IMG/VR virus record: IMGVR_UViG_3300028549_001457
Span: 192,001 to 256,000 of that record
Reading direction: 5' to 3' (one strand)
Source of the DNA: a virus
Taxonomy: Duplodnaviria > Caudoviricetes
DNA length: 64,000 nucleotides
The notes below the pieces were generated by a model. The model ran no database searches. It was not told the DNA's origin and saw only the letters and a list, made by a program, of their open reading frames with translations. Each line of letters begins with the position of its first letter. Position 1 is the stretch's first letter. The position numbers were made by a program, and so were the translations under genes. Shown piece by piece: positions 6,674 through 13,657 of this stretch.

Positions 6674-7216
6674 ATGGGACACTCAAAAAGATTTCAGAAC
6701 AGAAACACGGTTTTAGCTTTATCGTGTCATTTCATCCCAATGGCTGAAATTTCACGCAGAAAAGCAATCAAGGCCATCGTCACTCGTAAGGCTGACATCA
6801 TCACTAATCCTAAGACGCTGGAGACTTCTTCTTGGATTGAGCCTGGACAACCTATTAAGATGATTATCTATAAGATGGTTTCCAAGTCTCCCGGAGAGCC
6901 CCGTTTGCACTCAGGCAACAAGGGCCTAAAGGCGATTATTCGTCGTGACGGTCATAGGTGTTGCTATTGTGGGGCTAAGCTAAAGGGTACCAACTGCACC
7001 GTGGACCACATTGTCCCACGAAGTAAGGGCGGTCAAACTAACTGGAAAAACCTCGTGGCTTGTTGTTTCCGATGCAACCAGATGAAGGGCAGCAAGCTTC
7101 TGGAAGAAAGCGGTATGACCTTACTCCGTAGGCCTACCACCCCCACCATGGTTCTCATGGAGCGCTTCCATAAGTTGGTTGATTTTGATATGTTTGAAAA
7201 AACATACGCAGACTGA
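6674..7216 (+). CDS. HNH endonuclease (HNH_5/McrA-like)
   Basis: RRDGHRCCYCG...TVDHIVPRSKGG...WKNLVACCFRCNQMKG. Confidence 0.92.
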   Translation: MGHSKRFQNRNTVLALSCHFIPMAEISRRKAIKAIVTRKADIITNPKTLETSSWIEPGQPIKMIIYKMVSKSPGEPRLHSGNKGLKAIIRRDGHRCCYCGAKLKGTNCTVDHIVPRSKGGQTNWKNLVACCFRCNQMKGSKLLEESGMTLLRRPTTPTMVLMERFHKLVDFDMFEKTYAD

Positions 7217-7331
7217 TTTTACGGCACATTTTTCTGAACCTTTTTGAAATTTGTGCCGTATCTTAAACTAGTCCCCTGAGGGGGCGTTGAATCCTTGAAA
7301 ATTTGGCAACATATTTAAGTAAACTAACTAT

Positions 7332-7670
7332 GGCCTGACTAGGCACTTCGGTGCCGTAGCGCTCCAGCGTTGGTCGGGCCTCCAATCAAAACCCCGTCCT
7401 AGTAGCTTCCTAGGCTGTAATTCAAACGGCCATGAGGGGCAGTAACCCTTCGTGCAGTAAAGAGTCTCCTGGAGGCATTAACCTCTAAGGTCTGAATAGA
7501 ACGCGGCTTTTAGCTGTGAATCCAGTGAGCCAAACTGGTAGAATGAGTAGTTGCGACACTCCGGGGAATCATCAAACCCAAGGGGCAGTAAGTCAAAATG
7601 GGTTACTTCGAGAGCCTTCACAAGCTCACCATATGCAAAGACACCCACTGACGATTCCCTCCCCTTGGTT
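7332..7670 (+). ncRNA. candidate large structured ncRNA A (family unassigned)
   Basis: ORF-free, own promoter at 7234-7263, stems GGCCTGACT/GGTCGGGCC, GGCAC-TTCG-GTGCC, CCTAG/CTAGG, CCAGT/ACTGG; boundaries approximate. Confidence 0.6.
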
Positions 7671-7700
7671 TTTATAACCTAATTAACTTAGGAGGCTTAT

Positions 7701-7808
7701 ATGCCTGACTCAACTGGTTACTGGGGCGATGACGATGACAACAAGGTTCTTGATGCCATCGATGACGAATTTGATCGCTACGAGCGAGAAAATCCTGACG
7801 AAGATTAA
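7701..7808 (+). CDS. 35-aa acidic peptide MPDSTGYWGDDDD...
   Basis: GGAGG RBS, below the ORF-track cutoff. Confidence 0.55.
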   Translation: MPDSTGYWGDDDDNKVLDAIDDEFDRYERENPDED

Positions 7809-8240: not shown

Positions 8241-8293
8241 CTCATCAAACCGTGGGGGGAGTCATGACCCCCCCAGCCTCTTACCTGTAGTAT

Positions 8294-8669
8294 GGGGGTG
8301 CCATGGTTTTGACAGGTTGTTTATTTGAAGAGTAGTGCAGGTAGGGGTGGGCTGGCCCCTTTAATAAGCCCAAAAGCTATAACTGCCGAAGACACAATGC
8401 TTCTTCAGGCTGCGTAAGCAGCAACCTCTTAGTGAGCGTTTGGTAACTAAGTTGTATGTTCTTCAGAGGGTGGATTCGTCCTACTGATGGGGGATAACAG
8501 ACTGGACTCCGGTGACGCTTTCCTAGCCTGAGTTAAGAGCGTAGAGAGCAAGTCCTTGAATAGGGTTAGCCCAACTCCCTATAGAGGTCACGAAAAATGG
8601 GCTAAACCTGTGAATGAATTACCTTTAGAGGCTTCTTGGACATCGGTTCGATTCCGATCACCTCCACCA
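8294..8669 (+). ncRNA. ssrA: tmRNA, tag AEDTMLLQAA* (8385-8417)
   Basis: GGGGGTG/CACCTCC + ACCA with G3.U70, GGTTTTGAC, resume context ATAACT-GCC, T-arm TCGGTTCGATTCCGA. Confidence 0.93.
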
Positions 8670-11159: not shown

Positions 11160-11161
11160 AT

Positions 11162-11300
11162 AAAACACACGGGAATGCGTAGCTACGATGCGGTAATACC
11201 CCGTTGATCTGCATAACCTGTATCAGGGAATCTCACCTCAAGCGTGACTGATCTGTGTGCCTCGGGAGAGGCCAACATGAGGAAGGTGGGAGTGTGTTTT
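11162..11300 (+). ncRNA. candidate ~140-nt structured RNA D
   Basis: closing stem AAAACACAC/GTGTGTTTT, CTCACCT/AGGTGGG, GCCTC-GGGA-GAGGC. Confidence 0.45.
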
Positions 11301-11499: not shown

Positions 11500-11610
11500 T
11501 TTTTTCTTTTAATGAAATTAATTCCTGGTATCTCTCTTAGGTAAGATCCTTGACAATTTGTCCAGTAGCGAGTATCCGGTTACTTCGTTAATATGACTCA
11601 GTGTTATATT

Positions 11611-11876
11611 TACCTTGGATGTAAGGTCCCGAAGGAACCACCTGAAGGTAGGGGGGTTAGCGTAAAAACTAACCTTGAGATACATGAGTAACTTCCCTCA
11701 TGGCATCTCTTATCGGGTGGGCATCCCACAGATGCTTAAAAAGTGAACCCCGTATACGTTAATCTCTGGACAGCACTTTCACGGTAGCAAGTAAAGAGTT
11801 CCTTCGGCTATGAAACTCTATACAACAAACCTCCGTGTTCTTTCCGGCCCCTCCTACTCCGAGGGGCTTTTTCTTT
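11611..11876 (+). ncRNA. candidate large structured ncRNA B
   Basis: serial hairpins (TACCTT/AAGGTA, GGTTAG/CTAACC, CATGAG/CTCATG, GCATC/GATGC) ending in the terminator GCCCCTC/GAGGGGC-TTTTT. Confidence 0.55.
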
Positions 11877-12077: not shown

Positions 12078-12190
12078 AAAATTTTCTGGACTTTTGAATA
12101 ACTTTCTGCGTATTATATCTATGGCGACCAAATAGATGGTCCCCGCATCTCCCTGGCGCACTAGGGTAGCACATAGAAGGACGGTGCCCC

Positions 12191-13657
12191 ATGGCTCGTT
12201 TCGCTAAGACGGAAGTCTCTACTGTTAACACTCCTACTACTGTTAACTTGGCTGGAGGGGAAGCTTTTGCTATGTCCCCTAAGCTTGAGTTTGCTTCGGC
12301 GCTGTTGACTTGCTTCACCACGGATACTTATTACAAGTCCGGTGAGGGTCAGGTTAGTCGCATTGCCGATTTGTCCAAGACTGTTGACCCTTTGTTTGCA
12401 GCAAAGGCAGCTATCTTTACTCGTAAGAAGAATGGCCTCCGGTCTGTAAGCCACATTGTGGCCGGGGAACTCTCTCAGCGTGTGGATATCAAGGGCTTGG
12501 AGTGGACTCGTAAGTTCTACGAGCGGGTTGTCAATCGTCCTGATGACATCACCGAGACTCTTGCATATATCAAGTCCACGAGTGGTCAGAACCTCCGTAA
12601 GTTGAGCAACGCTATGAAGAAGGGTTTCGGCGCGGCTCTCGGTAAGTTTGATTCTTATCAGCTTGCCAAGTATCGTGGAGAGGGTAAGGATCTGAATCTG
12701 TATGATGCGGTCAATTTGCTGCACCCTAAGGCTACTGCTGCATTGACCGAGCTGATGACCGGGACTCTTAAGCCAGCCGAAACTTGGGAGACCAAGCTTA
12801 CTCAGGCTGGTCAGAAGGCATCTTCGGATACCGAGAAGGCCGAAATGAAGGGTCAGGCATGGCGTGAGCTTTTGACTGCTAACAAGCTGGGCTTCATGGC
12901 TTGCATCCGCAATCTTCGCAACATTGCGGAACAGGCTCCTGATGTAATGCCTTTGGCTCTGGAGTTCATTACGGACCCTCATCAGGTTAAGAAGTCCCTG
13001 ATGTTCCCCTTCCAGATTTATACTGCTACCGAAGCAATTCGTGGCACTAAGGCTGATACCCGTGAGGTTAAGCTGGCTCTGGAAAAGGCGATGGAGTTGA
13101 GCCTTGTCAATGTTCCCAAGTTTTCAGGTAAGACCCTGATTGCTGTTGATACCAGTGGATCTATGGCTGGTCGCCCCGTTCAGATTGCTGCGTTGTTTGC
13201 GGCTGTGCTGTTTAAGTCTAACGATGCAGACGTTCTGCGTTTTGCTTCGGGCGCTACCTACCTGGACCTCCACCCAGCGGATAGTCTTACCACGCTCACC
13301 GAGAAGATTCACCGCGCTTCCGGGGGTGGGACCGATTTCCACAGTATCTTCGAAACTGCTAATAAGGTCTATGACCGAATTATCATCCTTTCGGACATGC
13401 AAGCTTGGGTAACTCGTCAGGTTAGTTCTTATTGCGCTGGGACCCCTCATGCCGCACATAAGGCTTACAAGCAGAAATTTGGAGCGGATCCTCGGATCTT
13501 CTCTTTCGATCTGACGGGTCAGGGGACCCTCCAGTTCCCCGAGAGCAAGGTTTTCGCTTTGGCGGGTTTTAGTGACGCCGTTTTGAAGACCATGCAGAAC
13601 CTCGAAATGGACCCTAATGCCCTCGTGCATGAAATCGAGTCTATTAGCTTGACCTGA
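12191..13657 (+). CDS. rsr: Ro60-related TROVE-domain RNA-binding protein
   Basis: N.AGG.AF, TROVE core (KFDSYQLAKY, TWET, LRN..N), vWA MIDAS DTSGSM, GGGTD, DRIIILSD. Confidence 0.93.
   Translation: MARFAKTEVSTVNTPTTVNLAGGEAFAMSPKLEFASALLTCFTTDTYYKSGEGQVSRIADLSKTVDPLFAAKAAIFTRKKNGLRSVSHIVAGELSQRVDIKGLEWTRKFYERVVNRPDDITETLAYIKSTSGQNLRKLSNAMKKGFGAALGKFDSYQLAKYRGEGKDLNLYDAVNLLHPKATAALTELMTGTLKPAETWETKLTQAGQKASSDTEKAEMKGQAWRELLTANKLGFMACIRNLRNIAEQAPDVMPLALEFITDPHQVKKSLMFPFQIYTATEAIRGTKADTREVKLALEKAMELSLVNVPKFSGKTLIAVDTSGSMAGRPVQIAALFAAVLFKSNDADVLRFASGATYLDLHPADSLTTLTEKIHRASGGGTDFHSIFETANKVYDRIIILSDMQAWVTRQVSSYCAGTPHAAHKAYKQKFGADPRIFSFDLTGQGTLQFPESKVFALAGFSDAVLKTMQNLEMDPNALVHEIESISLT

What the first reader, a model, noticed from the sequence alone, without database searches (positions are those of the whole stretch)
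7264..7690. Unassigned ~350-nt ornate ncRNA candidate with its own promoter
Seen: an ORF-free stretch downstream of promoter copy 7234-7263, a short hairpin and ATCCTTGAAAATTTG. It has many nested stems, a UUCG tetraloop and an 11-nt motif AGGGGCAGTAA repeated at 7435 and 7581. Known: large ornate RNAs such as GOLLD and ROOL occur in phage tRNA clusters, but this one is shorter and I cannot match it to a family. Inference: a new structured RNA class, possibly linked to the upstream HNH gene or to Ro60.
Basis: partly seen in the sequence, partly recalled or inferred. Interest (0 to 1): 0.68.

Follow-up and report, generated by a model that had tools for sequence, protein, structure and literature searches.

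The report
Phage Y-RNA unit with long leader
The last 90 bases of this gene-free stretch are a partner RNA (Y RNA) for the phage's own Ro60 protein, a known kind of RNA, while the 270 bases before it are a phage-specific leader built partly from Y-RNA pieces, and I could not show that this leader is a new RNA class.

Summary
The stretch has no credible ORF. It follows a copy of a phage promoter-like box, carries a 5' hairpin and a UUCG loop, and holds AGGGGCAGTAA twice. Rfam gives no match even at E<=10.

It is not one uniform new "ornate" RNA. The 3' part, 7578-7668, is a Y-RNA-type "handle" unit. A covariance model built only from Y-RNA arrays beside Ro60 in related metagenomic phages has its best hit in the whole window there (31.7 bits, E 4e-5, all 14 modelled pairs standard). 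The unit's signature (GCAGTAAG, a short gap, GGGTTACTTCG) also marks RNAs next to Ro60 genes in bacterial genome assemblies. It has no tRNA-like body, so it fails the YrlA definition.

The 5' part, about 7306-7577, folds only moderately better than shuffles (z -2.3). No homologue turned up in any collection I could reach, so covariation could not be tested. It does carry two more GCAGTAA half-sites. It also shares a 15-mer and a 32-nt stretch with the two Y-like RNAs beside Ro60 at 11.5 kb.

The most likely reading is a rearranged paralogue of that Y-RNA locus, lying at the start of the unit that appears to run on to the tmRNA. This scan has already noted phage Ro60 handle RNAs on other DNA.

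The parts
7234..7263 (+). Promoter-like box: CTGAAC (7234-7239), a 16-nt spacer, CCGTATCT (7256-7263)
   Evidence: About 15 copies of YTGRAY-N16-CCGTATCT(T) in the 279-kb genome, all on the + strand and upstream of genes or tRNA clusters. Function as a promoter is inferred.
7271..7285 (+). 5' hairpin GUCCCC-UGA-GGGGGC close to the expected transcript start
   Evidence: Read from the sequence. Several other boxes are followed by similar small G+C hairpins.
7291..7305 (+). Leader 15-mer ATCCTTGAAAATTTG, shared with the Y-RNA locus beside Ro60
   Evidence: The only other copy with at most 1 mismatch in the genome is at 11546-11560, ending 1 nt before stem S1 of the long Y-like RNA.
7332..7384 (+). 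Predicted domain I: a 10-bp stem carrying two hairpins (one with the UUCG loop), followed by UCCA
   Evidence: MFE and centroid structures agree; z -2.3 for 7328-7432. No homologues, so no covariation test. Not tRNA-like by ARAGORN or Rfam.
7392..7567 (+). Predicted domain II: a multi-branched region closed by CCCCG/CGGGG
   Evidence: Prediction only (z -2.3 for 7306-7578). Its sub-parts 7425-7500 and 7490-7580 are not better than shuffles.
7434..7451 (+). Hairpin GAGGGG-CAGUAA-CCCUUC, holding the first AGGGGCAGTAA copy; it reads like a handle 5' strand with its middle removed
   Evidence: Both copies read AGGGGCAGUAA ... CUUCG. The same GGG-CAGUAA half-site lies 23 nt before the Ro60 start codon in relatives L048, L052 and L053.
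7451..7505 (+). Possible decayed second unit: CGUG/CGCG stem, CAGUAAAG, AGAG/CUCU helix
   Evidence: 7456-7487 aligns with the short Y-like RNA at 11790-11820 (score 25 against a shuffle mean of 18.6, sd 2.2). The handle model does not accept it (4.5 bits, E 0.34). Tentative.
7578..7668 (+). Y-RNA-type handle unit. S1 7578-7585/7661-7668; loop CAGUAA (7586-7591) facing GAUUCCCU (7653-7660); S2 7592-7595/7649-7652 and 7599-7603/7643-7647; GGGUUACUUCG 7600-7610; a small hairpin as body
   Evidence: Model R1, built from 20 units of related phages and none from this window: 31.7 bits, E 4e-5 in the window and 1.7e-4 in the whole genome, the full model matched, no non-standard pair. MFE z -3.0. Its signature lies beside Ro60 genes in bacterial assemblies.
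7669..7673 (+). U5 run directly after S1: a possible 3' end or partial terminator
   Evidence: Read from the sequence. The minimal handle unit at genome 174664-174734 is also followed by a U5 run. Termination is inferred.
7690..7808 (+). Context, not part of the RNA: AGGAGG (7690-7695) and a 35-aa ORF (7701-7808); a 131-aa ORF and the tmRNA follow
   Evidence: A 5-bp hairpin (7678-7692) covers the first three bases of the ribosome-binding site.

Best explanation
The stretch is the non-coding first ~400 nt of a phage transcription unit, and it is made of Y-RNA material.

Shown:
- Its last 91 nt (7578-7668) fold into the same two-helix handle as the RNAs arrayed beside Ro60 in related phages and in bacterial assemblies. 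The handle is stem S1, an internal loop of CAGUAA facing GAUUCCCU, stem S2, then GGGUUACUUCG.
- The unit's body is a small hairpin, not a tRNA mimic.

Inferred:
- The unit docks the phage's own Ro60, whose gene starts at 12191, about 4.5 kb downstream on the same strand. In known systems such docking lets the RNA gate Ro60 or tether it to a nuclease such as PNPase.
- S1 followed by U5 sets the 3' end.
- The unit is cut out at the A/U-rich linker AAUCAUCAAACC, giving a Y RNA of about 95 nt.
- The ~270 nt upstream are a rearranged and partly decayed paralogue of the Y-RNA locus at 11.5 kb. They share the leader 15-mer and a stretch like the short Y RNA, and carry two more GCAGUAA half-sites. They may still offer weak extra Ro60 sites, but probably act mainly as a processed leader.
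For: - The handle family is real. In 20 units from relatives, S1 and S2 are 87.8% paired, 12 of 17 pairs change on both sides, and 0 of 500 shuffles reach this.
- The model built from those units has its best hit in the 64-kb window at 7579-7667 (E 4e-5; 3.4e-7 on the local stretch). The next handle hit is the short Y-like RNA beside Ro60.
- In the whole phage genome the same model finds six full-length units. These include a canonical tRNA-like array, one unit of which also matches Rfam YrlA below threshold (43.6 bits).
- A relatives' unit matches YrlA over its full length at 35.4 bits.
- GGTTACTTCG occurs exactly twice in the window: here and in the long Y-like RNA.
- GCAGTAAG-N4-10-GGGTTACTTCG found 15 places in prokaryote genome assemblies. 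Five lie within 5 kb of a Ro60 gene, and four of the five that I searched with the model carry arrays of handle units.
- Paralogy with the 11.5-kb locus.
- Published background. Ro60 contacts mainly the 5' strand of the Y-RNA stem, and bacterial and phage Y RNAs share a short 5' motif (PMC4201824). A Thermus phage Ro60 binds two phage Y-like RNAs and host PNPase (PMC12135203).
Against: - No binding, expression or processing data exist.
- The unit lies 4.5 kb from the Ro60 gene, not beside it.
- It lacks the tRNA-like domain and is invisible to Rfam YrlA.
- Its half-site reads CAGUAAG, not the published GNCGAA(N)G motif.
- The long Y-like RNA used for comparison is itself not found by the model.
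- The 'decayed paralogue' reading of the 5' part rests on three short similarities, each about 3 sd or less above shuffles, and they are not in the same order in the two loci.
- The 5' part does fold somewhat better than chance (5 of 200 shuffles), which a pure relic need not do.
Confidence: 0.55

Rival explanations
1. It is a regulatory leader or attenuator for the genes behind it (35-aa ORF, 131-aa ORF, tmRNA, tRNA-Thr). S1 plus U5 is a terminator. The duplicated AGGGGCAGUAA, together with the two C-runs (7392-7395 and 7661-7664), would allow alternative pairings that switch read-through, perhaps set by Ro60 binding.
For: - No other box of the promoter family lies between 7256 and 10033, and no clear terminator was found in between, so downstream genes depend on read-through.
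- The U5 run follows S1 directly.
- Two identical G-rich strands and two matching C-rich strands exist.
- A related half-site lies in the conserved leader of the Ro60 mRNA just before its ribosome-binding site, which hints that Ro60 can act on leaders.
Against: - The terminator scan does not call the site.
- S1 encloses 75 nt, which is unusual for an intrinsic terminator.
- The conserved loop and S2 features of the handle are not needed for termination, yet they are kept.
- Alternative pairing is only my reading of the sequence. No ligand or sensor domain is recognisable.
Confidence: 0.15
2. The whole ~400 nt is one new large structured RNA. The Y handle would be only its docking end, so that a ~250-nt folded domain, or several Ro60 rings through three GCAGUAA sites, is assembled on it.
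For: - The 5' part folds better than most shuffles (z -2.3).
- Three GCAGUAA sites lie in 150 nt, and there are none elsewhere on the + strand of the window.
- The long Y-like RNA beside Ro60 shows that this phage does make handle RNAs with large bodies that are not tRNA-like.
- A phage Ro60 forms higher-order complexes with its Y-like RNAs (PMC12135203).
Against: - No homologue of the 5' part was found in eight scans of viral contigs, one metagenome scan, two genome scans, GenBank phages, or the phage's own genome.
- The handle closes on itself, so the 5' part lies outside it, unlike every other unit seen.
- Two of the three sub-windows tested in the 5' part are no more stable than shuffles.
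Confidence: 0.12
3. Only the 3' unit is functional. The 5' 270 nt are neutral debris of duplications and rearrangements in a tRNA island that also holds gene remnants.
For: - The island has several other ORF-free gaps of 300-700 nt.
- The closest relative with the long Y RNA (L046) does not keep the leader 15-mer.
- The similarities to the 11.5-kb locus are short and scrambled.
Against: - The two AGGGGCAGUAA copies are identical over 11 nt.
- Domain I is a clean, stable structure (z -2.3).
Confidence: 0.13

Closest known systems
YrlA-type bacterial and phage Y RNAs (Rfam RF02553; Chen et al. 2014, PMC4201824)
   Same: - The two strands of the closing stem (S1) pair, as the two ends of a Y RNA do.
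- A short conserved purine-rich motif follows directly on the 5' strand.
- It is encoded in a genome that has Ro60.
- Sister units in the same phage and in its relatives match RF02553 weakly (43.6 and 35.4 bits).
   Different: - No tRNA-like domain; the body is a hairpin of about 27 nt.
- No RF02553 hit at all for this unit.
- The motif is CAGUAAG, not GNCGAA(N)G.
- It lies 4.5 kb from Ro60 and is preceded by about 300 nt of extra RNA.
Yrl1 and Yrl2 of Thermus phage phiLo with phage Ro60 (PMC12135203)
   Same: A phage-encoded Ro60 with phage-encoded Y-like RNAs that are not classical YrlA. Several RNAs serve one protein, and complexes with more than one protein per RNA have been described.
   Different: Those RNAs lie directly upstream of the gene and were picked by a CGAA motif. 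No sequence relationship to them was tested here.
The phage's own Y-like RNAs at 11561-11773 and 11778-11839
   Same: Shared GGUUACUUCG, a shared leader 15-mer, a shared AGUAAAGAGU...CUCUA stretch, and bodies that are not tRNA-like.
   Different: Those use UAGCRAG where this one has CAGUAAG. They lie beside Ro60 and end at a separate terminator hairpin.
Large ornate RNAs of phage tRNA regions (GOLLD, ROOL)
   Same: Location in a phage tRNA island, and no ORF.
   Different: No Rfam match at E<=10. The stretch is far smaller. No conserved multi-domain fold could be shown.

Membership tests
Ro60-adjacent Y-RNA handle units of this phage group (session model R1) | Stem S1 and stem S2 around an internal loop | tested here: met
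   All 14 modelled pairs are standard pairs in 7579-7667. The helices covary in the 20 training units.
Ro60-adjacent Y-RNA handle units of this phage group (session model R1) | Conserved strands YAGYAAG ... GGKUNCUUCG on the 5' side and AYUYYCUC on the 3' side | tested here: met
   The unit has CAGUAAG, GGGUUACUUCG and GAUUCCCUC. The U-for-C variant also occurs in L067 and in bacterial units.
Ro60-adjacent Y-RNA handle units of this phage group (session model R1) | Significant score against a model that does not contain the sequence | tested here: met
   31.7 bits; E 4e-5 in the window and 1.7e-4 in the genome. The model's calibration is shortened, so E-values are rough.
Ro60-adjacent Y-RNA handle units of this phage group (session model R1) | Position in an array next to the Ro60 gene | tested here: not met
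   It is a single unit about 4.5 kb upstream of Ro60, on the same strand. Other units of this phage also lie far from the gene.
Ro60-adjacent Y-RNA handle units of this phage group (session model R1) | Binding to Ro60 | not testable with these tools
   Needs a gel-shift assay or a pull-down.
YrlA (Rfam RF02553) | Score at or above the family's gathering threshold (69 bits) | tested here: not met
   No hit even at E<=10.
YrlA (Rfam RF02553) | tRNA-like domain (D and T arms) | tested here: not met
   No tRNA or tRNA-like hit in 7264-7690 from ARAGORN or Rfam. The model skips the whole body.
YrlA (Rfam RF02553) | 5' motif GNCGAA(N)G (PMC4201824) | tested here: inconclusive
   The unit has GCAGUAAG in the same position: similar in place and purine content, but not the same sequence.
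GOLLD, ROOL and other large ornate RNAs in Rfam | Match to the family covariance model | tested here: not met
Intrinsic terminator | G+C-rich stem directly followed by a U run | tested here: inconclusive
   An 8-bp S1 is followed by U5, but the stem encloses 75 nt and the scan does not call it.

The most novel reading that the evidence does not exclude
The transcript is a composite Ro60 RNA. A canonical handle at the 3' end, plus two further GCAGUAA half-sites, would load several Ro60 rings, or would present a ~250-nt folded domain to Ro60 from outside the handle. One of the half-sites may sit in a 'capped' arrangement like the one in the conserved Ro60 mRNA leader. That would be a new architecture for Y RNAs. 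It would tie Ro60 to control of the unit that also makes the phage tmRNA.
Probability: 0.15. Interest if true: 0.65.

Novelty: new variant of a known kind. Interest (0 to 1): 0.4.

Why it matters
Y RNAs are the partners of Ro60, a ring-shaped protein of RNA quality control, and what the pair does in phages is still unknown. This jumbo phage carries Ro60, at least seven handle RNAs, a tmRNA and an RNase P RNA, so it appears to bring its own RNA-surveillance kit. A handle unit with no tRNA mimic, preceded by extra half-sites and placed ahead of the tmRNA, offers a small, testable construct. It can be used to ask what the minimal Ro60 docking element is, and whether Ro60 also acts on leaders, including the leader of its own mRNA.

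Tried and rejected
Homologues of the 5' part: none were found by any route.
- blastn against GenBank phages.
- Two scans for the doubled motif; these returned only coding tandem repeats.
- A scan for the tandem GCAGTAA arrangement.
- nhmmer and blastn against all fetched loci.
- The phage's own genome.

Synteny routes also failed.
- The 131-aa neighbour has one homologue, P0002, held only in ENA.
- No relative of the neighbour was found in viral or genome contigs.
- The closest syntenic relatives, L046 and L047, end just before the place where an orthologue would lie.

Readings rejected.
- A paralogue at 2513-2533: that stretch lies inside a thioredoxin gene, so the match is chance.
- A hidden coding gene.
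- A - strand RNA: z -0.45, and no handle-model hit above chance on that strand.
- Further canonical handles inside the 5' part.
- The 15-mer as a sigma-70 -35 element: at the Y-long locus it would start transcription inside the RNA.

Full report
**Setting.** The window is bases 192001-256000 of a 279-kb uncultured phage record. Its first 12 kb are an RNA island. It holds nine tRNAs, a tmRNA at 8294-8669, a group I intron inside a tRNA and a Ro60 gene at 12191-13657 with TROVE and vWA domains. The finding lies between an HNH gene (6674-7216) and a 35-aa ORF with a strong ribosome-binding site (7701-7808).

**Checking the observation.**
- No ORF longer than 56 aa on either strand, and none with a family match.
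- AGGGGCAGTAA at 7435 and 7581, where 0.06 is expected by chance.
- Three GCAGTAA on the + strand of the window, all inside the stretch.
- A UUCG-capped hairpin and a 5' hairpin.
- A promoter-like box. The box is one of about 15 copies of YTGRAY-N16-CCGTATCT(T), all on the + strand of the phage.
- No Rfam match at gathering score, and none at E<=10.
- Folding signal is moderate and strand-specific: z -1.9 on the + strand against -0.45 on the - strand.

**Finding relatives.** The stretch itself has no match in GenBank phages or elsewhere in its own genome. I therefore anchored on Ro60. Its relatives (60-74% identical) are numerous. One metagenome scan returned ten loci. In most of them three or four RNA units lie head to tail just upstream of Ro60.

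**The handle.** Each unit has the same plan:
- stem S1;
- CAGCAAGG;
- stem S2, ending in GGKUNCUUCG;
- a body, mostly tRNA-like and in one unit a permuted tRNA;
- the return strand of S2;
- CCAAYUYYCU;
- the return strand of S1.

In an alignment of 20 such units (A3), none from this window, S1 and S2 are 87.8% paired. Twelve of 17 pairs change on both sides, no shuffle out of 500 reaches this, and sliding the partner columns destroys the signal. One unit matches Rfam YrlA over its full length at 35.4 bits, below threshold. The family is therefore a branch of the YrlA-type Y RNAs.

**The 3' part is a handle unit.** A covariance model of A3 (R1) was run over the whole window.
- Its best hit is 7579-7667: 31.7 bits, E 4e-5. 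The full model is matched, the tRNA-like body is skipped, and no pair is non-standard.
- The next handle hit is the short Y-like RNA beside Ro60 (11778-11839).
- Over the whole phage genome the model finds six full-length units. These include a canonical array at 173.36-173.88 kb, one unit of which hits YrlA at 43.6 bits, and a 71-nt minimal unit at 174664.
- GGTTACTTCG occurs exactly twice in the window: here and in the long Y-like RNA.
- The signature GCAGTAAG-N4-10-GGGTTACTTCG was scanned against one genome per prokaryote species and gave 15 places. Five lie within 5 kb of a Ro60 gene (Saprospiraceae, Neolewinella, Verrucomicrobiota and Aureispira assemblies, and a contig binned as Dehalococcoidia). 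The four of these five that I searched with the model, plus a sixth hit (L093) for which I found no Ro60 in the fetched DNA, carry arrays of R1 units.

So 7578-7668 is a Y-RNA-type unit with a minimal body that is not tRNA-like. It fails the YrlA definition on the tRNA-like domain and on the Rfam score.

**The 5' part remains unassigned.**
- Region 7306-7577 folds better than 195 of 200 shuffles (z -2.3). Most of that signal comes from one clean forked stem at 7332-7380.
- With filters off, the handle model finds no second unit.

What can be said is that the 5' part is made of Y-like material.
- The first motif copy reads as a handle 5' strand with its middle removed: AGGGGCAGUAA-CC-CUUCG, against AGGGGCAGUAA-14 nt-CUUCG in the 3' unit.
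- 7456-7487 aligns with the short Y-like RNA.
- The 15-mer at 7291-7305 has its only close copy directly in front of the long Y-like RNA.
- Each similarity is about 3 sd or less above shuffles, and they are not in the same order in the two loci. I therefore read them as traces of an old duplication, not as proof of function.

**A side observation that bears on the half-sites.** The leader of the Ro60 mRNA is strongly conserved across the relatives. It consists of a pyrimidine run, a 4-bp hairpin CCCU/AGGG, then YAGYA (CAGUAA in three relatives), about ten bases before the ribosome-binding site. This looks like the handle's inner loop with S1 capped by a loop. It suggests that Ro60 may bind its own message. 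In the finding, CCAAUCAAAA-CCCC (7382-7395) and GGGG-CAGUAA (7436-7445) can be drawn the same way, and so can a stretch after tRNA-Asn at genome 174.6 kb. This is my own reading and I did not test it.

**Transcription unit.** No further box of the promoter family lies before 10033, and no clear terminator lies before the tmRNA. The promoter at 7234-7263 therefore probably serves the stretch, two small ORFs, the tmRNA and tRNA-Thr. S1 is followed directly by U5. The 71-nt unit at 174664 also ends in a U5 run, so these minimal units may double as 3'-end signals.

**Comparison with the literature.**
- Chen et al. 2014 (PMC4201824) describe YrlA RNAs beside Ro60 in more than 250 bacteria and phages. 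These have a tRNA-like domain and a 5' motif that Ro60 probably reads, mainly on the 5' strand.
- A 2025 study (PMC12135203) shows that a Thermus phage Ro60 binds two phage Y-like RNAs and host PNPase.
- The present unit works like these but is not a YrlA member.
- Earlier notes of this scan describe similar handle RNAs in other phages, and two Y-like RNAs beside this phage's Ro60.

**Verdict.** The best-supported part is a new variant of a known kind. The claim of a new ornate RNA class is unproven and, on present evidence, unlikely (about 0.12).

Noticed in passing
L056:2869-3210 (= phage genome 174868-175209, about 17 kb before the window): The phage encodes a full-length bacterial class A RNase P RNA (Rfam RF00010, 268.5 bits, model 1-367).
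   Followed up: partly
window 12140-12190, and the same place in L046 and L048-L055: The Ro60 mRNA leader is strongly conserved: a pyrimidine run, the hairpin CCCU/AGGG, then YAGYA (CAGUAA in L048, L052 and L053), about 10 nt before the ribosome-binding site. It looks like a capped version of the Y-RNA handle loop and could be a site where Ro60 controls its own mRNA.
   Followed up: partly
phage genome, about 15 sites including window 2069, 5945, 7256, 10033, 57081: A family of promoter-like boxes, YTGRAY-N16-CCGTATCT(T), all on the + strand. Several are followed by a small G+C hairpin.
   Followed up: partly
window 7569-7578 and 8242-8251: TCATCAAACC lies just before a G-rich stem at both places: before the handle unit, and before a hairpin ahead of the tmRNA. 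It may be a shared processing site. Only three exact copies occur on the + strand of the genome.
   Followed up: partly
L056:1359-1883 and L056:2665-2735 (phage genome 173358-173882 and 174664-174734): Three canonical tRNA-like Y units are interleaved with tRNA-Asp and tRNA-Phe, and there is a 71-nt minimal handle unit followed by U5. All lie about 30 kb from the Ro60 gene.
   Followed up: partly
L056:2598-2660: Directly after tRNA-Asn the sequence reads CCAAUCAU, a 5-bp hairpin, then GGCAGUAAGUCC...GCCAAUCUUUUCU. These are handle loop motifs without a normal S1, and they overlap the next unit's 5' strand.
   Followed up: no
window 11160-11300: An ORF-free stretch closed by AAAACACAC ... GUGUGUUUUU. 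It may be another structured RNA between a 100-aa ORF and a small ORF.
   Followed up: no
L046:3943-4147: The closest accessible relative has a 205-nt handle RNA with a body that is not tRNA-like, followed by a terminator. It lies after the same small ORF as the window's long Y-like RNA, so it is probably that RNA's orthologue.
   Followed up: partly
L083, L090, L093, L095 (contigs of metagenome-assembled bacterial genomes): These loci carry arrays of three to five handle units. In L083, L090 and L095 a Ro60 gene (44-47% identical to the phage's) lies within 5 kb. L095 also holds many tRNAs and may be a phage contig binned with a bacterium.
   Followed up: partly
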